From: Candidatus Saccharimonadota bacterium
Lineage (GTDB): Bacteria; Patescibacteriota; Saccharimonadia; Saccharimonadales; Saccharimonadaceae
Reading direction: 5' to 3'
Assembly (NCBI GenBank): GCA_001897305.1
Contig: MKSO01000001.1
Location: forward strand, 240,001 to 272,000
Length of the DNA: 32,000 nt
Below are positions 1,495-31,690 of the stretch, piece after piece (the first letter of the stretch is position 1; every line of letters begins with the position of its first letter). Made by a program: the position numbers and the translations under genes. Under the pieces are notes generated by a model that worked only from the letters and a program-made list of their open reading frames with translations, did not search any database and was not told where the DNA came from.

Positions 1495-1530
1495 AGTAAA
1501 AAATAGACTCCAACCGGGGTCTATTTTTCT
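1495..1530. terminator. bidirectional intrinsic terminator between convergent tsf and the minus-strand gene
   Basis: Stem TAGACTCC (1504-1511) pairs with GGGGTCTA (1516-1523), including one G-T pair; loop AACC. An A-run lies upstream and a T-run downstream. The stem overlaps the stop codon of the minus-strand ORF. Confidence 0.6.
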
Positions 1531-7137: not shown

Positions 7138-7167
7138 ACTCCCTACGCTATATATAGCGTAGGGGGT
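7138..7167 (+). terminator. stem-loop downstream of proS (candidate terminator, weak U-tract)
   Basis: Perfect palindrome CCCTACGCTATATATAGCGTAGGG at 7141-7164, extendable by about 3 bp. It starts 15 nt after the proS stop. The downstream sequence has only a short T-run (CTTTATC). Confidence 0.45.
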
Positions 7168-10319: not shown

Positions 10320-12080
10320 ATGAAATGGCTTGTGGGATTAGGGGTAATAGTAGCAGGAGCGTTGACGACGTTTACATCGGCCGGTGCCCTGAGTGTTGAT
10401 TATTTCACTATTCCACAGTATGACATTCAGTACGAGCTCTCGCGTGATAGTGAGGGCCGTTCTGTTTTAAAGACGACAGAAAAAATCACTGCTACTTTTT
10501 CGCAGCAAGATAAAAACCATGGGATTGAACGGGCCATACCTAGTACTTACGACGGCCATCCGGTGAGTTTGTCGATAGGTTCGGTAACAAATGAAAATGG
10601 CCAGAGTGTAGAGTATTCAACCCGTGAAGATAATGGTAATACGATTGTGCGCATTGGCAACCCTTCGCAGTATGCCCACGGAGACAAGACGTACGTACTT
10701 ACCTATACTCAACGCGATGTCACAAGGTTCTATCAAGACACGGGCAAAGATGAATGGTATTGGGATACGAACGGTACCGGCTGGCGGGTCCCCATAAGCC
10801 AGCTCACTGTTTCGATTCGACTTGATGGTGAACTCGCATCGTTAACTGGTACTCCATCGTGTTATGTTGGGGCCCAGGGCGCAACAAATACCTGTGACTT
10901 GCAGCAACAGGCCGATGGTAGTTATCGAACATCTGCGAGCAACCTGGCGAGCGGGGAGAATATTACGGTTGCCTTCGGTTTCCCTAAGGATACATTTACG
11001 GCCTATACTCGTTCATTTGGTGAGTGGGCAGCTATGATTTGGGGCATTGCTTTGATTGTGAGTATTCCAATAATGCTGATACTCATCTTTGTGATCAATG
11101 CCATATACATACGCCGTACCTACAGGGTATCGGAGCTAAAACCTATTCCGGTTGAATTTATTCCGCCGCGTTATGCTAGTGTGCAGGCTTCGGCTCAGGT
11201 AGTAGGGCAGGTAGGGGTGTACCATGTTTTTACTGCGCAGCTTATTGACTTAGCGGTACGCCGATTTGTCTCTATTATCGAAACGCGCCCAAAAACTACA
11301 TGGAAAGCAGCCGAGTATGATATTGCTATTAACCAGTCATTAAGTGAATTGAAATCGGAGGAGATGGAAATCCTTACGGATATGTTTGGTAGGGTGCCAC
11401 AAGTGGGTGATCGCTTGCCACTCAAGACGCTCCGCAATAATACTTCGTATCAACTACGAACGCTCGATAATGACAAGAAGCTGAAAAAGCTGCTAGAAGA
11501 TACTTATCGGTTGCGCGCTAAGTCACCGGTTTTAACGAAATTATTCAACCGCTGGGCTGTCGGCTTACTTATTGCAAGCATAGTACTTCTTATGCCTACC
11601 TTTTTACTCCCCGCTATTGTAGCGTGGGTATCGGGACTAGTGGCGCGGCCTTTGACCGATGAAGGGCTGGCGCTTCGTCGCTACGTAATGGGCCTTGACC
11701 GCTATATTAAAGCCTCTGAAGTAGAGCGATTGAAGTTTTTCCAAGGCCCCGAAACCGCCGAGAAAGTCGGCTATTCTGTAGATACAAATAACCCAGGGCA
11801 GTTGGTGAAATTATACGAACGAGTATTGCCATATGCCATATTATTTGGCCGCGAAAAACAATGGTCAAAGCAGCTCGGAGCCTTTTATGAGAACAGTAAC
11901 ACACAGCCGGAATGGTATAACGGCAGCACGGCTTTTAACGCTGTAGTATTTACTTCTGCGATGAGTAGTTTCTCGACAGCGACAAGTTATACGTCTGGAA
12001 CGAGCTCGAGTTCGGGCGGTTCGGGCGGTGGAGGTTTCTCTGGCGGCGGTGGTGGCGGTGGCGGCGGTGGCGGCTGGTAA
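10320..12080 (+). CDS. DUF2207-like membrane protein with C-terminal Ser/Gly-rich tail
   Basis: 586 aa. Signal/TM at the N-terminus, a large extracytoplasmic N-domain, central TM helices, and a terminal SSSSGGSGGGGFSGGGGGGGGGGGW tail characteristic of DUF2207 proteins. Confidence 0.75.
   Translation: MKWLVGLGVIVAGALTTFTSAGALSVDYFTIPQYDIQYELSRDSEGRSVLKTTEKITATFSQQDKNHGIERAIPSTYDGHPVSLSIGSVTNENGQSVEYSTREDNGNTIVRIGNPSQYAHGDKTYVLTYTQRDVTRFYQDTGKDEWYWDTNGTGWRVPISQLTVSIRLDGELASLTGTPSCYVGAQGATNTCDLQQQADGSYRTSASNLASGENITVAFGFPKDTFTAYTRSFGEWAAMIWGIALIVSIPIMLILIFVINAIYIRRTYRVSELKPIPVEFIPPRYASVQASAQVVGQVGVYHVFTAQLIDLAVRRFVSIIETRPKTTWKAAEYDIAINQSLSELKSEEMEILTDMFGRVPQVGDRLPLKTLRNNTSYQLRTLDNDKKLKKLLEDTYRLRAKSPVLTKLFNRWAVGLLIASIVLLMPTFLLPAIVAWVSGLVARPLTDEGLALRRYVMGLDRYIKASEVERLKFFQGPETAEKVGYSVDTNNPGQLVKLYERVLPYAILFGREKQWSKQLGAFYENSNTQPEWYNGSTAFNAVVFTSAMSSFSTATSYTSGTSSSSGGSGGGGFSGGGGGGGGGGGW
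12003..12077 (+). repeat. low-complexity Ser/Gly codon tract (GGY/TCG repeats) encoding the DUF2207 tail
   Basis: Direct repeat TTCGGGCGG x2 at 12011-12028, followed by a run of GGC/GGT codons to 12074. The antisense strand gives the spurious poly-Pro ORF in the track. Confidence 0.8.
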
Positions 12081-12125: not shown

Positions 12126-12833
12126 ATGATCGAGATTAAAAACGTCACCAAGACGTATGGTAAAAAAGGGAGTACCTTCCAGGCTCTAAAGGATGTCAGC
12201 TTAACCATCCCTGATGGCGCAAGTGTTGCTATCGTCGGTAAGTCGGGGAGCGGTAAATCAACCCTAATGCATGCCATGAGCGGTCTCGATCGTCCAGAGG
12301 CTGGAGAGGTTATTATTGACGGTGTCGACATTCTAAAACTCAAGAAAAAAGCCGTTGATACCTTTCGATCAGAAAAAATTGGCTTTATTTTTCAATCCTT
12401 TTTCGTACAAGCTAACGAAAGCTGCTATGATAACGTTTCGCTTCCACTGGAGATATCCAATAGCAAGGCGAGCCAACGTAAAGTACGTATTGAAGAAGCC
12501 CTTGCAACGGTTGACTTGAGCGATAAATTAAAACAAAAAGCACGGAATTTATCTGGTGGACAAAAGCAGCGTTTGGCAATTGCCCGGGCGATCGTAAACA
12601 AGCCAAGCATTATTTTTGCTGACGAACCAACCGGTAATCTCGACTCTACTACAGGTGAAAAAGTAGAAGACCTCTTATTTAGTCTTAATAAAAAAGAGGG
12701 CAGTACGCTTATTATTGTCACCCACGACACCGACCTGGCCCGGAAGTGCGATGTACAAGTGTACATAAAAGATGGTCAAATTGAACAAACGGTTGGTTTG
12801 GCGGCAAGCACGGCTGGAAAGGAACATAAATAA
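12126..12833 (+). CDS. ABC transporter ATP-binding protein (MacB/LolD-type)
   Basis: Walker A GKSGSGKST, Q-loop, signature LSGGQKQR, Walker B IIFADEPTGNLD, H-loop VTHD. Its stop overlaps the next start (TAATG at 12831-12835). Confidence 0.9.
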   Translation: MIEIKNVTKTYGKKGSTFQALKDVSLTIPDGASVAIVGKSGSGKSTLMHAMSGLDRPEAGEVIIDGVDILKLKKKAVDTFRSEKIGFIFQSFFVQANESCYDNVSLPLEISNSKASQRKVRIEEALATVDLSDKLKQKARNLSGGQKQRLAIARAIVNKPSIIFADEPTGNLDSTTGEKVEDLLFSLNKKEGSTLIIVTHDTDLARKCDVQVYIKDGQIEQTVGLAASTAGKEHK

Positions 12834-25293: not shown

Positions 25294-25309
25294 GGGGTCG
25301 GTTTCTCAA

Positions 25310-25346
25310 GCAAGCAGATACCCGTGTCGCGCGGGTATCTGCTTGC
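25310..25346 (+). terminator. strong stem-loop without U-tract downstream of the Clp_N gene
   Basis: GCAAGCAGATACCCG (25310-25324) is exactly complementary to CGGGTATCTGCTTGC (25332-25346). It starts 17 nt after the TGA stop and has no T-run after it. Confidence 0.5.
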
Positions 25347-25410
25347 AAGAGATATCAGGATTCGTAGTTGTACATACAAAGCCCTGACAATGGAGTATAC
25401 TATAAGCGTT

Positions 25411-25615: not shown

Positions 25616-26299
25616 ATGATTCTACTAGATAGGGTAACAAAAACATACGGCAAAGATAACGCTCCGGCCCTCAACCGCATGAGCCTTTTTGTTGAACCGC
25701 GCGAATTCGTTATTATTATTGGTTCATCGGGCGCCGGAAAATCAACGTTGTTAAAACTACTCACCCGCGAAGAGAAGCCAACTAGCGGCAAAATCGTGGT
25801 GGGCGGCATCGATTACGACACTCTTAAAGATTCACAAATCCCTATGCTCCGCCGTAAAATTGGCGTGGTTTTCCAAGACTTCAAACTACTTCCACAGCGC
25901 ACGGTGTTTGAGAACATCGCTTTTGCGCTGGAAATCGCCGGCATGACCGGCCGCGAGATTAAAAGTACCGTACCAAAGGTGATTGACCTAGTGGGCTTAA
26001 CGGGTAAGGAAAAGCAGTTCCCAAGCCAGCTATCTGGTGGTGAACGTCAGCGCGTTGCTATTGCCCGTGCGATTGTTCGTCAGCCTAAAATCCTGATTGC
26101 CGACGAGCCAACCGGTAACCTCGACCCTAAAAACACTTGGGAAATTGTGCGTTTACTTGAAAAAATTAACAAATACGGCACTACCGTACTGCTTACTACT
26201 CACAATGCCGATATCGTGAACAAATTAAAGCGTCGCGTTATTACTATTGAAGAAGGTAAAATTACCGGTGACCAGGCCGAGGGAAGCTACCGGCAGTAG
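25616..26299 (+). CDS. ftsE: cell division ABC transporter ATP-binding protein FtsE
   Basis: 227 aa. Walker A GSSGAGKST, VFQDFKLLPQRTVFENIAFAL, LSGGERQRVAIARA, ILIADEPTGNLDP. Followed by ftsX. Confidence 0.92.
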   Translation: MILLDRVTKTYGKDNAPALNRMSLFVEPREFVIIIGSSGAGKSTLLKLLTREEKPTSGKIVVGGIDYDTLKDSQIPMLRRKIGVVFQDFKLLPQRTVFENIAFALEIAGMTGREIKSTVPKVIDLVGLTGKEKQFPSQLSGGERQRVAIARAIVRQPKILIADEPTGNLDPKNTWEIVRLLEKINKYGTTVLLTTHNADIVNKLKRRVITIEEGKITGDQAEGSYRQ

Positions 26300-26308
26300 G
26301 GTAATAGT

Positions 26309-27340
26309 ATGGTACGACAGAATCAAAAAGAGAATCGGCAAGAGCAGAAGGCGAATAAGGTCGTCAAGGCTAAAACGAGCGCTAAAGCTTTAGCCCAGAA
26401 GAAGCATCATCGCCGCCAGTGGATTACTTTCCTGCGCATGTGTCGCTACGGGGTCAATAATTTTACCCGTAATGCTTGGTTAACAGTGGCTGCTACCGCG
26501 GTTATGACTATTACGCTGTTTGTTATTTTTGTCAGTTTTGTTTCACATAACGTTCTTATTGATACGGTTGACCAACTCCGCGATAAAGTAAACATGTCTA
26601 TTTACTTGAAAAACGACACCACCGAAAAGGATGTCGATACGGTAGTGGCGCAAATTGAGAATCTGTCCTCGGTAACAAGTGTAAGTACTAAGTCCCCAGA
26701 AGAAGCCCGAACAGACTTTGTTAACCAAAATAAAACGGATGAGGGAACGCTGGGTGCTGTTAAAGAAGCGACCAACAAATTCCCTTGGACGATCAGTATT
26801 AAGGTAAAAGATATCAACGACACGGCGCAATTGTCTGACTTGGTTAAAAACAACGAACTCGTGAAGGAGCACATTGATCCCAACCGTGACCCGTCGTTTG
26901 CGGGTAGTCGCCGCACCGCCATTGAAACTATTGGTAGGGTAGCGCACTTTGCACAGCAAATCGGTATTCTTATGAGTATCGTTTTTGTGGCTATTTCTAT
27001 GCTGATAATCTTCAATACTATTCGTATGGCCATCTTCAACCGTCGTGAAGAAATCCAGATGATGAAGCTGATTGGGGCCGATAGGGCATTTATTCGCGGG
27101 CCATTTTTAGTAGAAGCGATTGTGTACGGGTTCTTCGCTGCCATTATTGCTACCGGTATGGGCTTTGCATTGTTAGTTCTCGCCGCACCTGCGCTTGCTA
27201 CATATGACATTAATGTTCAGCCAACTCTCACTCTCGCTACGTATTACGCGGGGATTGTACTACTGGCTATGATTATTGTCGGTGCTATTATTGGCATGAT
27301 CTCATCATTACTTGCAACTCGTCGTTATCTTAAGCTTTAA
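26309..27340 (+). CDS. ftsX: cell division permease-like protein FtsX
   Basis: 343 aa. Basic N-terminus, TM1, an extracytoplasmic domain of about 120 aa (MSIYLKNDTTEKDV...), and a C-terminal three-TM FtsX domain (EEIQMMKLIGADRAFIRGPF). Confidence 0.88.
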   Translation: MVRQNQKENRQEQKANKVVKAKTSAKALAQKKHHRRQWITFLRMCRYGVNNFTRNAWLTVAATAVMTITLFVIFVSFVSHNVLIDTVDQLRDKVNMSIYLKNDTTEKDVDTVVAQIENLSSVTSVSTKSPEEARTDFVNQNKTDEGTLGAVKEATNKFPWTISIKVKDINDTAQLSDLVKNNELVKEHIDPNRDPSFAGSRRTAIETIGRVAHFAQQIGILMSIVFVAISMLIIFNTIRMAIFNRREEIQMMKLIGADRAFIRGPFLVEAIVYGFFAAIIATGMGFALLVLAAPALATYDINVQPTLTLATYYAGIVLLAMIIVGAIIGMISSLLATRRYLKL

Positions 27341-27350
27341 TAAACATTTT

Positions 27351-27500
27351 AAGCATACTATCACGGTGGGCACTTCTCTTTTGAGATACAAGGAAATATC
27401 TGCAGCCCGAGTCTGAACGGGACGCTGGCGCCCGAGAAGACCCGGTGCGAAGCCATTTCCGGTAGATCGAAAGAGAAGTGCCCACCGTGATAGTATGCTT
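27351..27500 (+). repeat. hairpin-capped conserved-core element, copy 2
   Basis: The 31-nt arm AAGCATACTATCACGGTGGGCACTTCTCTTT (27351-27381) is exactly complementary to 27470-27500. Pairing continues inward (GGAAAT/ATTTCC and others). The core at 27400-27455 is 53/56 identical to 17230-17285. The stem sequence is unrelated to copy 1. Confidence 0.85.
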
Positions 27501-27527
27501 GACTGTACATAAAGCTTATGCTAATGT
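27499..27527 (+). promoter_or_regulatory. candidate promoter TTGACT-N17-(TGc)TAATGT for the PcsB-like gene
   Basis: TTGACT at 27499-27504, starting in the last 2 nt of the hairpin arm. TG at 27519-27520 and TAATGT at 27522-27527. ATG 27538 lies 10 nt after the -10. Confidence 0.45.
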
Positions 27528-27537
27528 AGGTAGAGTA

Positions 27538-28755
27538 ATGATGAAACTGAAAGCCACCACACCAGCTTCAATCACTCAATATACGAAAAGGGCGTTTCTC
27601 ATTGTGAGTGCGCTTGTTTTAGTTGGTGCCGGTGCATTCGCTCTAAAATCTCAGCCAGCCGCCGCCGACCAATACGACGACAAGATCGCTTCGCTGCAGG
27701 CCGATATGGCTCGTTACCAGGCTGAGGCTGATCGTCTTAATGCCGAAGCGACTACTCTTGCTAATGCTTTAGCGCAGATTACCAACGAAAAGAATGCCCT
27801 CCAAGCCCAAATTGATGTTGGTCAGGCTCAATACGACAAATTGGTTATTCAAATTGCTGATACTGAAAAGCAAATTCAGGAAAACCAAGACGCGCTTGGT
27901 ACTACTATTGCCGACCTTTATGTAGATGACAGTATTTCGCCAATTGAAATGCTTGCCAGCAGCCAAAATATTGGCGATTATCTTGATAAGCAAGAGTACC
28001 GTAACTCGGTAAAGGACCAACTAAGCACCACTATTAAAAAAGTCCGCGACCTTAAGGCCCAATTAAGCCAACAGAAGTCAGATGTTGAAAAAGTTTTGGC
28101 TGAGCAAAAATCTGCTCGTGACTCGTTAGCAGCTAAGCAAGCCGAGCAAGCTAACTTGTTGGCGTCTACCCAGAATGACGAAGCTAACTACCAAAATATG
28201 ATTAAAGACAACCAATCTCAGATTGCCGCTGCTAAAGCCGCACAAGCAGCTATTCGTGCACGAGCTAATTCAACGGGTGGGGGAGTACTGGTTGACGCTG
28301 GTTCATTAGCTGCCTACCCGTGGAATGAATCAAACTGTTGGATGATCGGCTACATGTCTGAAGGTGGCGCCGGTAACGGCCTTGACGGTCACGGCTACGG
28401 ATGTCGCCAGTGTGTTAGCTATGTTGCGTGGCGCGTTGCCAAAGAGACTGGCGTATACTACGATACCGTACTTGGTAACGGCGGTAGCGCAGCGTACAAC
28501 CTAGCGCAACGCGGCTACCAAAACCTTGGCCGTACTCCACAACCTGGTTCAGTCGCGTCACTTTGGGGTACTTCATCGGCACCGTATTCATCGGCTAGCT
28601 CACCTGGTCACACTGCCTATGTAGAAGACGTAAGCCCTGATGGCAGCAAGGTGCTCGTAAGCCAATACAACTACAACTATGGTTCAGGCTATGGTATGTA
28701 CAGTAAAATGTGGCTATCTTCAAACTTTTTTGATCAATACGTCAAAATTAAATAA
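27538..28755 (+). CDS. secreted coiled-coil + CHAP-domain peptidoglycan hydrolase (PcsB-like)
   Basis: Signal peptide from MMKLKATTP...AFALKSQPAAA, then a coiled-coil region of about 200 aa. C-terminal CHAP domain with Cys (GCRQCVSYVAWR) and His (PGHTAYVEDV). The track start at GTG 27478 would translate the hairpin arm, so I moved the start to ATG 27538. Confidence 0.8.
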   Translation: MMKLKATTPASITQYTKRAFLIVSALVLVGAGAFALKSQPAAADQYDDKIASLQADMARYQAEADRLNAEATTLANALAQITNEKNALQAQIDVGQAQYDKLVIQIADTEKQIQENQDALGTTIADLYVDDSISPIEMLASSQNIGDYLDKQEYRNSVKDQLSTTIKKVRDLKAQLSQQKSDVEKVLAEQKSARDSLAAKQAEQANLLASTQNDEANYQNMIKDNQSQIAAAKAAQAAIRARANSTGGGVLVDAGSLAAYPWNESNCWMIGYMSEGGAGNGLDGHGYGCRQCVSYVAWRVAKETGVYYDTVLGNGGSAAYNLAQRGYQNLGRTPQPGSVASLWGTSSAPYSSASSPGHTAYVEDVSPDGSKVLVSQYNYNYGSGYGMYSKMWLSSNFFDQYVKIK

Positions 28756-30524: not shown

Positions 30525-31652
30525 ATGACAGATATCGAATCGCAAAATCCAACACCAGAGCAAGACTTATCAAAGAAATTTCTTACCGAAGCAACCGATC
30601 TTAGAGATTCCCTGACCCCTGAGACTAGCCAGTTAGTGCTTGATGCCCAAATGGACCGGTTTATATCTGGCATAGAAGATGCTTCACAGAATGGTGAGCT
30701 TGTGGGCTCTACTGGAAAGCAATATAGTCTCGAAGAAATAATGGAGCGACTTGATGTTCTTCGCTCACTTATAGATGAAACGACGAAAGAGGGGCAGCCC
30801 GTACCGATGACTGTTCTTCCGGTTGCGTTGAGGGACCCGTTTCGATTACTTTTAGCTAATGAAACCACTGCACAAACGTTGAAGGGCAGTATCGATACTG
30901 CTGTGGCTATTTTTAAACAGGAACAGGCGGGTGTTCGTGAGCCATCTCCAAGTGTTGCTAATATACCGTTTAGTGACAAGTTTCCTCGGAAGAGTGAAGT
31001 TGGTGCCGCTAAGACTATTGTGAATCTAGAAGGCATAATGTCCGGTCAGGACGTTGCACCCAAAACTGAAGCTTACCAGTCGACTGAACGTTTTGTGGAC
31101 AAAGAAGCGCGCGAGCAAATTATCGAAGATCTTTCCGAAGAAGCAACGAATGCTTCAGGGATCGCAAACCCCATCGAGCACGAATCCGCTAAACATTTCT
31201 CGCCTGGTCAAGAAGTAAGGGTTAAGCGTAGTAGCGGAGAGTTGGAAGGTGGGTGGAAGGTAGACTTCGTTAATAAGCAAGATGGCACACTTCTTCTTGT
31301 GTCGCCTGATGGGCGTCATGAAAAGCCCTATAAAGCGAGTGAACTGCTCGTATTGAACCCATCCGGACAGACTAATGAGGTACCAGTAGCAACTCCTGAT
31401 GATATGAAAGATGACCCAGATCTCCGTATTGATGCGTTGTCGGCAAGGATGGATGATATTCGTGGTAAATTCGATGCACAAGACGCTCGCTTGCTTCATA
31501 AATTTGCTTCGGCGGTACATGAGTTTGAATTTAATTCTGCATATGGTGACATGAGCCCTGGTGCAAGGGGTGTCGCGTTGCAATACAGAGATCTTCTTGC
31601 CGAGTTGAAGCAAGCAAGGGCTGATAAGGAACAGTCAAAGGGGAGTAGATAA
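30525..31652 (+). CDS. hypothetical acidic protein (possible SH3-like central segment)
   Basis: 375-aa ORF starting 36 nt after the response regulator and sharing its terminator. I recognise no family motif. The central segment FSPGQEVRVKRSSGELEGGWKVDFVNKQDGTLLLVSPDG resembles small beta-barrel (SH3/Tudor-like) folds. Confidence 0.65.
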   Translation: MTDIESQNPTPEQDLSKKFLTEATDLRDSLTPETSQLVLDAQMDRFISGIEDASQNGELVGSTGKQYSLEEIMERLDVLRSLIDETTKEGQPVPMTVLPVALRDPFRLLLANETTAQTLKGSIDTAVAIFKQEQAGVREPSPSVANIPFSDKFPRKSEVGAAKTIVNLEGIMSGQDVAPKTEAYQSTERFVDKEAREQIIEDLSEEATNASGIANPIEHESAKHFSPGQEVRVKRSSGELEGGWKVDFVNKQDGTLLLVSPDGRHEKPYKASELLVLNPSGQTNEVPVATPDDMKDDPDLRIDALSARMDDIRGKFDAQDARLLHKFASAVHEFEFNSAYGDMSPGARGVALQYRDLLAELKQARADKEQSKGSR

Positions 31653-31690
31653 AAATAAAACCCGTGAGGTACCTCACGGGTTTTATTTTA
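31651..31690. terminator. bidirectional intrinsic terminator between convergent genes
   Basis: Perfect 20-nt palindrome CCCGTGAGGTACCTCACGGG (31661-31680), flanked by AAAAATAAAA upstream and TTTTATTTTA downstream. Confidence 0.8.

What the first reader, a model, noticed from the sequence alone, without database searches (positions are those of the whole stretch)
27351..27500. Second copy of the conserved core, in an unrelated perfect 31-bp hairpin between ftsX and the PcsB-like hydrolase
Positions 27351-27381 are exactly complementary to 27470-27500 (31 bp). Pairing continues inward with copy-specific sequence: TGA/TCG including one G-T, then TAC/GTA, then GGAAAT 27392-27397 with ATTTCC 27455-27460.

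The geometry matches copy 1 closely. The spacers between arm and core are 18 and 14 nt here, versus 17 and 13 nt in copy 1. Both copies have the same orientation as the flanking genes. Both sit after a gene that has no ordinary terminator, and just upstream of the next gene's promoter. Here the -35 TTGACT at 27499-27504 overlaps the end of the arm.

The six-frame track's N-terminus for the downstream ORF (GTG 27478, MPTVIVCLTVHKAYANVGRV) is simply the 3' arm read as protein. The real start is almost certainly ATG 27538, which is followed by a signal peptide.

The two copies have the same architecture, the same core and totally different helices. That amounts to natural compensatory variation along about 40 bp of stem.
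Basis: seen in the sequence. Interest (0 to 1): 0.8.

Follow-up and report, generated by a model that had tools for sequence, protein, structure and literature searches.

The report
Conserved hairpin-tip repeat module in Saccharibacteria
The giant hairpin between ftsX and the cell-wall hydrolase gene is real, and it is one of at least six copies of a small palindromic DNA module found in a few Saccharibacteria; the module sits at the tip of locus-specific hairpins in either orientation (once in-frame inside topoisomerase I), so it looks like a low-copy, possibly selfish repeat and not a strand-specific regulatory RNA, although its core is conserved far more strongly than a simple selfish repeat would predict.

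Summary
27351-27381 is the perfect reverse complement of 27470-27500, and the region folds at -99.6 kcal/mol (z = -13.9). A 57-nt core (27399-27455) recurs at 17229-17285 inside unrelated arms.

The host is Candidatus Saccharibacteria bacterium 47-87. Its genome or same-species contigs hold at least six copies:
- four more intergenic copies (one strongly diverged);
- one in-frame in topA.

Eight of 120 related TopA proteins carry the insert at the same point, scattered among insert-free relatives.

Related species show empty sites: no hairpin (hpf site), a plain short hairpin (ftsX site), or a plain hairpin with orthologous outer arms (dut/der site).

The module is inverted in the sister species at the ftsX site, apparently also at its hpf site, and in two TopA lineages. 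It is antisense to its neighbours at a further locus. A sense-strand RNA function is therefore unlikely.

Arms diverge fast but stay paired (21 of 48 pairs compensatory in topA orthologs). The arms also show a symmetric indel and near-perfect Watson-Crick pairing. Published work attributes such patterns to replication template switching at inverted repeats.

The core is almost frozen: 79/81 identical where fourfold sites are 38% identical. This is unexplained.

There is no match in Rfam, phage or plasmid collections.

Verdict: a new variant of palindromic repeat, closest to the Rickettsia palindromic elements (RPEs).

The parts
27349..27502 (+). Copy 2: the whole hairpin between ftsX and the CHAP/PcsB-like gene
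   Evidence: MFE -99.6 kcal/mol, z -13.9; inverted repeat I1
27351..27381 (+). 5' outer arm, locus-specific, 31/31 Watson-Crick with 27470-27500
   Evidence: About 60% identical to the sister-species arm, with 9 pairs changed on both sides. Unrelated to the arms of the other copies.
27470..27500 (+). 3' outer arm; its last bases run into the conserved TTGAC(T) box
27387..27467 (+). Unit shared by subfamily A (copies 2, 3, 5 and the sister ortholog): inner stem TACAAGGAAATAT ... CCATTTCCGGTAGAT plus the core
   Evidence: 79/81 identical to the inverted sister ortholog, where ftsX fourfold sites are 38% identical.
27399..27455 (+). Conserved 57-nt core (imperfect hairpin: P1 CU/AG, loop GCA/GA, P2 GCCCG/CGG.GC, bulged A, P3 GUCU/AGAC, loop GAA/AGA, P4 CGGG/CCCG, apex)
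   Evidence: Covariance models R1 and R2 score 88-89 bits on this strand and 19-25 bits on the other.
17187..17324 (+). Copy 1 (subfamily B) between the Cu-oxidase_4 gene and hpf; the stop codon of the upstream gene (17190-17192) lies in its 5' arm
   Evidence: Empty site in L020/L021, where the ORF runs 3 codons longer.
17229..17285 (+). Core of copy 1
   Evidence: 95% to copy 2; 90.6-91.3 bits
27499..27527 (+). Promoter-like block for the CHAP gene: TTGACT 27499-27504, 17 nt, TAATGT 27522-27527. TTGAC and GCTTATGCTAA are conserved in four lineages; the exact -10 is uncertain.
   Evidence: Not listed by the consensus scan. Inference only.
26309..27340 (+). ftsX (upstream gene)
   Evidence: Pfam FtsX and FtsX_ECD
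27538..28755 (+). CHAP-domain, coiled-coil (PcsB-like) hydrolase gene, with its start at ATG 27538
   Evidence: Pfam CHAP; public gene calls

Best explanation
Copy 2 belongs to a small family of palindromic hairpin-tip modules in a few Saccharibacteria. The module is an ~57-nt imperfect hairpin plus ~12-25 nt of inner stem on each side.

Shown:
- The module occupies the apex of long inverted repeats whose outer arms are specific to each locus.
- Related genomes have the same sites without it.
- It occurs in either orientation, in intergenic DNA and in-frame in topA.
- Arm sequence turns over at about the neutral rate while staying complementary.
- The core evolves roughly ten times more slowly than neutral sites.

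Inferred:
- The module is a DNA-level element that gets copied into the tips of existing inverted repeats or hairpins, or into other tolerant sites. The route would be replication template switching or short-homology recombination, not a classical transposase. This would explain the absence of terminal repeats shared between copies and of target-site duplications, and the variable boundaries of the shared unit.
- The same template switching keeps the arms perfect, lengthens them and occasionally flips the centre.
- In the ftsEX transcript the structure would fold into a very stable 3' hairpin just before the next gene's promoter. It probably takes over whatever role the plain ancestral hairpin at this site has (3'-end stabiliser or factor-dependent terminator). 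That role would not need the module.

Why the core is so conserved is not explained. Either only this sequence is propagated, or a protein reads it.
For: Family and copy number:
- Copies 1 and 2 are in the window. Copies 3 and 5 are on same-sample contigs L004 and L007.
- The topA copy is in the organism's own genome (P0241, L022/L023, 90 bits).
- A diverged sixth copy is at L022 3821-3960 (53 bits with R2, which was built from an alignment that includes this copy).

Empty sites:
- hpf site in L020/L021: no hairpin.
- ftsX site in L020/L021: a plain ~20-bp hairpin. In L018 the site holds a long inverted repeat with a different interior.
- dut/der site in L014: a plain hairpin with orthologous outer arms.
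- topA: about 109 of 120 orthologs lack the insert, and the carriers are scattered among insert-free nearest neighbours.

Orientation-free: L017, L016, L014, the P0002 peptide and copy 5. Flipping the L009 hairpin in silico reproduces the P0020/P0002-type peptide.

Arms:
- topA orthologs are 86.8% paired, against 33-43% for slid controls.
- 21 of 48 pairs have changes on both sides, and 0 of 500 shuffles reach the observed values.
- Nine double changes separate copy 2 from its sister ortholog.
- A symmetric CCAAG/CTTGG indel is present in both arms.
- The outer arms of copies 1-3 are 31/31, 31/32 and 20/20 Watson-Crick.
- Plain hairpins at other gene ends also differ completely between species.

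No match in Rfam, phages, plasmids or viral contigs.
Against: - Individual copies of a purely selfish repeat should decay. Yet the orthologous ftsX-site module is 79/81 identical between species whose fourfold sites are 38% identical.
- Several unpaired nucleotides (GCA/GA loop, bulged A) are invariant in 11 copies. This points to sequence-specific recognition of a folded strand.
- Arm mismatches lean towards G.U on the transcribed strand (21 vs 9), which fits some RNA-level selection.
- Insertion into hairpin tips by template switching is inferred, not observed.
- The hpf site shows no pre-existing hairpin in the only outgroup available.
- Copy number is very low for a mobile element.
Confidence: 0.5

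Rival explanations
1. DNA-level functional site. The folded strand or an extruded cruciform presents the conserved core to a sequence- and structure-specific protein, such as a rolling-circle HUH Rep, a tyrosine recombinase or a host DNA-binding protein. The long arms serve to drive extrusion. Because a cruciform shows both strands, orientation would not matter.
For: - Nucleotide-level conservation is independent of orientation and of coding context. The same core encodes LQPESERDAGAR in one orientation and SSRAPASRSDSG in the other.
- The core is nearly frozen where neutral sites are saturated.
- Unpaired bases are invariant.
- There are only a few copies per genome.
- Copy 3 abuts a tyrosine recombinase gene.
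- A rolling-circle Rep of an inovirus-like prophage lies about 7 kb from topA in this genome.
Against: - No module copy was found in the visible part of the prophage.
- No recombinase or Rep gene is near copies 1 or 2.
- The diverged sixth copy and the L011/L013 topA copies have lost much of the core sequence, including the GAA/AGA loop, while keeping the hairpin.
- Patchy presence in topA argues against an essential site.
- The GC-skew check gave no link to the origin or terminus.
Confidence: 0.22
2. One reading: a strand-specific cis-acting RNA element in the 3' UTR or intercistronic region. It would act as a terminator, insulator, RNase III processing site or protein-binding hairpin, with the core as the functional part and the variable stem needed only as a helix.
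For: - The predicted RNA folds are very stable.
- Compensatory changes occur in the core and the arms.
- G.U wobbles are enriched on the host-sense strand (21 vs 9; 45 vs 27 in MFE pairs).
- The sense-strand fold is the more stable one in 9 of 12 copies.
- Copies 1 and 2 follow genes that lack a U-tract terminator and precede promoters.
Against: - The core is antisense to host transcription in L017, L016, L014, P0002 and copy 5, yet it is equally conserved there.
- One copy is translated inside topA, and one lies between divergent genes.
- No U-tract follows the stem.
- Terminator-like sites are not enriched in the region (18 found vs 17.5 expected).
- No Rfam family matches.
- Wobble-free 20-31-bp arms are not what RNA-level selection alone produces.
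- Strand asymmetry of base-pair types in RNA stems has itself been attributed to template switching (PMC8794818).
Confidence: 0.15
3. An ordinary non-autonomous transposon (MITE or RPE type) moved by a transposase encoded elsewhere in the genome, with the arms being its own fast-evolving terminal inverted repeats.
For: - Multiple near-identical cores occur in one genome, with patchy distribution among relatives and in-frame insertion in a housekeeping gene, as described for the Rickettsia palindromic elements (review PMC10969869).
- At the hpf and topA sites both arms are absent from the empty site.
Against: - The outer arms share no sequence between copies, and no flanking direct repeats are seen.
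- The outer arms at the dut/der site are present in the empty-site species.
- The boundaries of the shared unit differ from one pair of copies to another.
- No transposase lies near any copy.
- There are only six copies.
Confidence: 0.1
4. An assembly artefact: a spurious inverted duplication.
For: One short contig (L016) joins the arms of two different copies through the core, which shows that assemblers can be confused by this repeat.
Against: Identical sequence is present in independent assemblies from ENA and JGI (L001-L003), and the FtsX protein is named in an NCBI genome. Orthologous copies with diverged but still complementary arms exist in other species.
Confidence: 0.01

Closest known systems
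Rickettsia palindromic elements (RPEs)
   Same: Small (~100-150 bp) hairpin-forming repeats in a reduced genome. They are found both between genes and inserted in-frame into housekeeping proteins, where they add a peptide (review PMC10969869). Here the topA insert adds ~36 aa in a lineage-specific loop.
   Different: In RPEs the whole element is conserved within a family, and there are dozens of copies, many of them in ORFs. Here only the central 57-81 nt is shared. The outer arms are locus-specific, there are about six copies, only one coding host was found, the centre flips, and the core is under strong constraint. No sequence relationship to RPEs was tested, and the host phylum is different.
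MITEs and other bacterial palindromic repeats (Correia, ERIC, BOX, RUP, SPRITE, REP/BIME)
   Same: Non-coding, hairpin-forming and repeated, often at gene ends, sometimes acting like or mimicking terminators (names and general properties from PMC10969869 and from my own knowledge).
   Different: MITEs are defined by terminal inverted repeats shared between copies and by target-site duplications. Neither is present here. REPs are much shorter and occur in hundreds of copies.
Inverted repeats maintained by replication template switching (quasipalindrome correction)
   Same: Arm homogenisation to perfect complementarity, arm expansion, multi-base and indel 'compensatory' changes, and reversible spacer inversion, including in coding DNA (PMC8604942, PMC8794818, PMC13100816). 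All of these are seen here.
   Different: That is a mutational process, not an element. It does not explain a conserved ~57-nt spacer shared by unlinked loci, or its spread.
Invertons (invertible promoters flanked by inverted repeats)
   Same: A short segment between inverted repeats is found in both orientations.
   Different: The orientation differences here are between species; four assemblies of the same species agree. In invertons the conserved parts are the inverted repeats, which a nearby invertase binds. Here the repeats are the variable part, and no invertase lies next to copies 1 or 2. No promoter is evident in the core.
raiA motif RNA and other Rfam families
   Same: Copy 1 lies directly upstream of an hpf/raiA-family gene.
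   Different: No Rfam model, raiA included, matches at gathering score or at E<=10. The best hit is a chance match to a miRNA hairpin model (25.7 bits against a 100-bit threshold).

Membership tests
Rickettsia palindromic elements (RPE-like selfish palindromes) | Short repeated element able to fold into a stable hairpin | tested here: met
   Folds of -71 to -100 kcal/mol, z -5.7 to -13.9
Rickettsia palindromic elements (RPE-like selfish palindromes) | In-frame insertion into protein-coding genes, tolerated by the protein | tested here: met
   The topA ORF stays open through the insert in 7 species. The insert falls in an expansion loop absent from solved TopA structures. It is predicted as coil between two strands, in a low-confidence model.
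Rickettsia palindromic elements (RPE-like selfish palindromes) | Copies of one family alignable over the whole element | tested here: not met
   Only the central 57-81 nt is shared; the outer arms are unrelated between loci
Rickettsia palindromic elements (RPE-like selfish palindromes) | Sequence homology to a described RPE family, or occurrence in Rickettsiales | not tested
   No RPE consensus was available in the tools. The host is a Saccharibacterium.
MITE (miniature inverted-repeat transposable element) | Terminal inverted repeats conserved between copies | tested here: not met
   The arms differ completely between copies 1, 2, 3, 5 and 6
MITE (miniature inverted-repeat transposable element) | Target-site duplication flanking the element | tested here: not met
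   No direct repeats at the hairpin borders of copies 1, 2, 3 or 5 (read from the sequences)
MITE (miniature inverted-repeat transposable element) | A related autonomous IS or transposase in the genome | not testable with these tools
   The whole genome could not be fetched. No transposase occurs in the 59 kb of this genome that was examined.
Intrinsic (Rho-independent) terminator | G+C-rich hairpin immediately followed by a U-tract | tested here: not met
   Copy 2 is followed by GACTGTACAT and copy 1 by TGCCTTAGGG. Neither is listed by the terminator scan. Copy 5's outer stem does have flanking A and T runs.
Any Rfam 15 RNA family (incl. raiA, ribozymes, 6S, SRP, group II domains) | Covariance-model match at or near the gathering score | tested here: not met
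   No hit at gathering score in the window. No credible hit at E<=10 or E<=1 around copies 1, 2, 3, 5 and a same-species topA copy (L009), nor around the sister-species ftsX-site ortholog (L017).
Inverton (phase-variable invertible segment) | Both orientations present within one population, and an invertase gene nearby | tested here: inconclusive
   Orientation differs between species, not among the 4 assemblies of this species or the 2 of the sister. Read-level data were not available. There is no recombinase near copies 1 or 2; one lies next to copy 3.
Structured functional RNA (generic) | Covariation supporting the fold AND a consistent transcribed strand | tested here: inconclusive
   Covariation is strong, but at least 4 of 13 copies are antisense to host transcription, and DNA-level processes can produce the same covariation (PMC8794818).

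The most novel reading that the evidence does not exclude
The module is not junk. It would be a previously undescribed, orientation-independent nucleic-acid signal of Saccharibacteria: a ~57-nt imperfect hairpin read as folded single-stranded DNA or as a cruciform. It would be kept nearly invariant by purifying selection and propagated to hairpin tips without a transposase. That would amount to a new kind of 'hairpin-tip' replicator, or a recognition site for a rolling-circle Rep, a recombinase or DNA-uptake machinery.
Probability: 0.27. Interest if true: 0.8.

Novelty: new variant of a known kind. Interest (0 to 1): 0.6.

Why it matters
Saccharibacteria and other CPR bacteria have tiny genomes in which almost no non-coding or mobile DNA has been characterised.

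- This family gives a compact natural example of long hairpins that keep perfect pairing while their sequence turns over. It also shows that such 'compensatory variation' need not indicate a functional RNA, which matters for comparative RNA discovery.
- It shows in-frame colonisation of an essential enzyme (topoisomerase I) outside Rickettsia.
- The unexplained near-invariance of the core, in either orientation, marks a short, testable candidate for a protein-recognised DNA or RNA signal in organisms that have only recently become genetically tractable.
- In practice the element misleads gene callers (false N-terminus at GTG 27478) and assemblers (contig L016).

Tried and rejected
- Rfam at gathering score on the whole window, and at E<=10 or E<=1 around five copies: nothing real.
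- tRNA/tmRNA scan: none in the window.
- Exact-pattern scans: viral contigs with two patterns gave 0. Metagenome contigs gave 4 hits, one of them a chance GC-rich match, L005. Genome contigs gave 1 hit. blastn against phages and plasmids gave nothing.
- Peptide search with all stop-free frames of the core, to find other in-frame hosts: 44 word candidates and none significant.
- parS-like or origin-linked site: the window holds only housekeeping genes. GC skew has the same sign in the window and in the topA block, so no terminus or origin lies between them. Idea dropped.
- 'Both orientations must stay open-reading' test in topA: confounded by frame and later indels, so not used as evidence. The exception is that flipping L009 reproduces the P0020-type peptide.
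- Link to the neighbouring inovirus-like prophage Rep: no module copy in the visible prophage DNA. Kept only as a lead.
- Canonical terminator: no U-tract, and terminator-like sites are not enriched.
- The TopA structure prediction had low confidence (pLDDT 57.8), so only the coarse 'coil between two strands' reading is used and no fold search was run.
- A broadened covariance model that includes the diverged copy found no further members in 196 kb.

Full report
**1.

Positions 27351-27381 are exactly the reverse complement of 27470-27500. With the imperfect continuation, the arms are 27351-27389 and 27462-27500.

The 'first copy' lies at 17187-17324 (-96.2 kcal/mol, z = -10.9). The two share a 57-nt core (17229-17285 and 27399-27455) at 95% identity, inside arms that have nothing in common. 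Two of the three core differences form one compensatory pair.

The same sequence occurs in independent assemblies (L001-L003), so it is not an artefact. The FtsX protein names the organism as Candidatus Saccharibacteria bacterium 47-87, with contigs of 0.9-1.3 Mb.

**2. It is a small family, and this genome holds at least six copies**

Exact-pattern scans found very little elsewhere: nothing in viral contigs, four metagenome contigs and one genome contig. Covariance models built from the copies then defined the set within about 240 kb of Saccharibacteria DNA:

| Copy | Location | Context |
|---|---|---|
| 1 | window 17187-17324 | Cu-oxidase_4 gene \| hpf |
| 2 | window 27349-27502 | ftsX \| CHAP hydrolase gene |
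| 3 | L004/L007 | between a 419-aa gene and a convergent tyrosine recombinase gene |
| 5 | L007 2085-2155 | between ndk and tRNA-Arg, antisense to both |
| topA copy | L022/L023 11508-11577 | inside the organism's own topA (P0241, 90 bits) |
| 6 (diverged) | L022 3821-3960 | between the divergent dut and der genes |

The sixth copy has the same segment lengths and junctions as the others but an AT-rich apex.

Copies 2, 3 and 5 share a longer unit (window 27387-27467). Copy 1 and the topA copy share a different inner stem. Beyond these units every locus has its own arms.

No Rfam family matches any copy, including raiA for the copy upstream of hpf. Phage and plasmid collections have nothing similar.

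**3. The topA copy**

In a different Saccharibacteria MAG (L008) the core lies inside an 821-aa topoisomerase I ORF, and the frame stays open.

Among 120 TopA homologs:
- about 109 read ...LSV-xPGxx-VEREVVQEKTG...;
- eight carry a ~36-aa insert at exactly that point;
- one carries a partial remnant;
- two carry an unrelated insert.

The carriers are not a clade; their nearest neighbours are mostly insert-free.

In E. coli TopA, 8 residues stand where P0017 has 75. A low-confidence model puts the insert as coil between two strands. This in-frame, patchy, tolerated insertion is what has been described for Rickettsia palindromic elements (PMC10969869).

**4. Empty sites**

- **hpf site:** L020/L021 have no hairpin, and the upstream ORF runs three codons further. 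In the window the 5' arm supplies the stop codon.
- **ftsX site:** L020/L021 have only a ~20-bp plain hairpin. L018 has a long inverted repeat with a different interior. In all lineages the 3' base of the hairpin runs into a conserved TTGAC box.
- **dut/der site:** L014 has a plain hairpin whose flanks and outer arms are orthologous to those of the filled site in 47-87. The two differ by a symmetric CCAAG/CTTGG indel present in both arms.

Plain long hairpins without any module are common at gene ends in this window (1499-1528, 7138-7167, 25304-25352, 31652-31689). At one such position, after the Clp_N gene, relatives carry unrelated hairpin sequences. Canonical U-tract terminators are not enriched.

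The locus-specific helix is therefore largely a property of the site, and the module is the visitor at its tip. This is clearest at the dut/der and ftsX sites. At the hpf and topA sites both arms are absent from the empty site.

**5. Orientation does not matter**

- In the sister species (FtsX 90% identical) the whole centre at the ftsX site is inverted relative to the window (L017). The hpf-site arm seen in L016 implies the same there.
- In TopA, L014 and (by peptide) P0002 carry the inverted core.
- P0017 and P0020 are each other's closest TopA (94%) yet differ in orientation.
- Flipping the L009 hairpin in silico yields the P0020-type peptide.
- Copy 5 is antisense to its neighbours.

A sense-strand RNA function cannot be reconciled with equal conservation in both orientations.

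**6. Arms change fast but stay paired, and the core hardly changes**

- Across six orthologous topA inserts, 86.8% of cells are paired against 33-43% for slid controls. Twenty-one of 48 pairs show changes on both sides, and no shuffle out of 500 reaches the observed values.
- Between copy 2 and its sister ortholog, nine arm pairs changed on both sides.
- ftsX fourfold-degenerate sites are only 38% identical between these two species, so neutral sites are saturated. Yet the 81-nt unit is 79/81 identical, and its two differences are one compensatory pair.
- Several unpaired positions (GCA/GA loop, bulged A) are invariant in 11 copies.
- In contrast, the L011/L013 topA copies and the sixth copy have lost much of the core sequence while keeping the hairpin.

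**7. Mechanism**

Nearly wobble-free arms (31/31, 31/32 and 20/20 Watson-Crick), symmetric indels, arm lengthening and inversion of the centre are consequences that published work attributes to polymerase template switching between inverted-repeat arms. These effects are also reported within coding DNA (PMC8604942; PMC13100816). The same process has been shown to 'create and maintain RNA hairpins' and to mimic compensatory evolution (PMC8794818).

I therefore read the helix variation as mainly a DNA-level phenomenon. I infer that the module spreads by the same kind of event, or by short-homology recombination between hairpins. Three things fit this: there are no terminal repeats shared between copies, there are no target duplications, and the boundaries of the shared unit vary.

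A modest excess of G.U over A.C mismatches on the transcribed strand (21 vs 9) leaves room for some selection on the transcript hairpin. For copy 2 that hairpin probably continues the role of the plain ancestral hairpin at the end of ftsEX.

The strong conservation of the core is not explained by this model. It is the main reason to keep a protein-recognised DNA (or RNA) signal as a serious rival. Leads for that rival are the tyrosine recombinase next to copy 3 and an inovirus-like prophage with a rolling-circle Rep about 7 kb from topA. No module copy was found in the visible prophage DNA.

**8. Verdict**

The feature is real and reproducible, and it matched nothing in Rfam, the phage, plasmid and viral-contig collections, or the literature searches run here.

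I classify it as a new variant of palindromic repeat element. It is RPE-like in its in-frame topA insertion. It is unlike RPEs and MITEs in having locus-specific arms, an invertible centre and a strongly constrained core.

- Interest: 0.6.
- Best explanation (a template-switch-propagated hairpin-tip module with no strand-specific function): 0.5.
- Functional DNA site: 0.22.
- Strand-specific RNA: 0.15.
- Classical MITE: 0.1.

Noticed in passing
L016 1-1512 (ENA ERZ28615959, sister species): This contig joins ftsX and the ftsX-side arm, through the core, to the hpf-side arm and hpf. That is the junction expected from recombination between copies 1 and 2 (an excised circle or a tandem duplication of the ~10 kb between them), or from an assembler crossing the repeat. 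L017 from another sample has the normal arrangement.
   Followed up: partly
L022 about 17260-22439 (same scaffold as the window, ~7 kb downstream of topA): An inovirus-like integrated element. It has a rolling-circle replication initiator (PF23343, phrog_3419) at 19092-19826(-), a weak Zot-like ATPase match at 20253-20900(-) and several small ORFs of unknown function. It is absent at this position in relatives L014 and L010. No module copy is in the visible part.
   Followed up: partly
L018 about 10992-11135 (ftsX|CHAP spacer of a species with 80% FtsX identity): A long inverted repeat (26-bp arms AAGTTGGAGTGCCATACGTTGCTTTT / AAAAGCGACGTATGGCACTCCAACTT) encloses a different interior made of two smaller hairpins. 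It may be another kind of hairpin-tip cargo.
   Followed up: no
window 1499-1528, 7138-7167, 25304-25352, 31652-31689: Plain perfect or near-perfect hairpins (13-21 bp stems) lie right after genes. At the one position checked in relatives (after the Clp_N gene) their hairpins are unrelated in sequence. U-tract terminators are not enriched, which suggests an unusual 3'-end or termination style in these genomes.
   Followed up: partly
L022 3821-3960 versus L014 3985-4030: A symmetric indel (CCAAG in the 5' arm, CTTGG in the 3' arm) distinguishes the orthologous hairpins of two species. A compensated multi-base change like this is most simply produced in one step by template switching.
   Followed up: partly
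TopA proteins P0029 and P0036; P0071: P0029 and P0036 carry a different, unrelated short insert (…GAAAGAGEQTVAQG…) in the same TopA loop. P0071 keeps what looks like only the right-arm part of the module insert (…SEVGINGV…), a probable deletion remnant. This loop is a hotspot for length change.
   Followed up: no
L007 3576-4501 versus L004 5919-6617: The tyrosine recombinase gene next to copy 3 is split into two overlapping ORFs in L007. In L004 there is a 232-aa ORF that begins 69 nt before the contig end and so may be cut off there. Both contigs come from the same sample, so this may be a frameshift or strain difference, or a sequencing error.
   Followed up: no
window 27478-27537: The mechanical ORF starting at GTG 27478 extends the CHAP gene by 20 codons that are simply the 3' arm. 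Public gene calls use ATG 27538 or 27541.
   Followed up: yes
window 12550-12648 and 26031-26129: This 99-nt direct repeat at 73% identity is just the conserved ABC-ATPase signature region of two paralogous transporter genes (a MacB-type ATPase and ftsE), not a repeat element.
   Followed up: yes
core sequence, e.g. window 27400-27447: The core is dense in short palindromic restriction-type sites (CTGCAG, CCCGAG twice, GGCGCC, CCGG), and five of its six reading frames are stop-free. The stop-free frames help explain why it is tolerated in-frame in either orientation.
   Followed up: no
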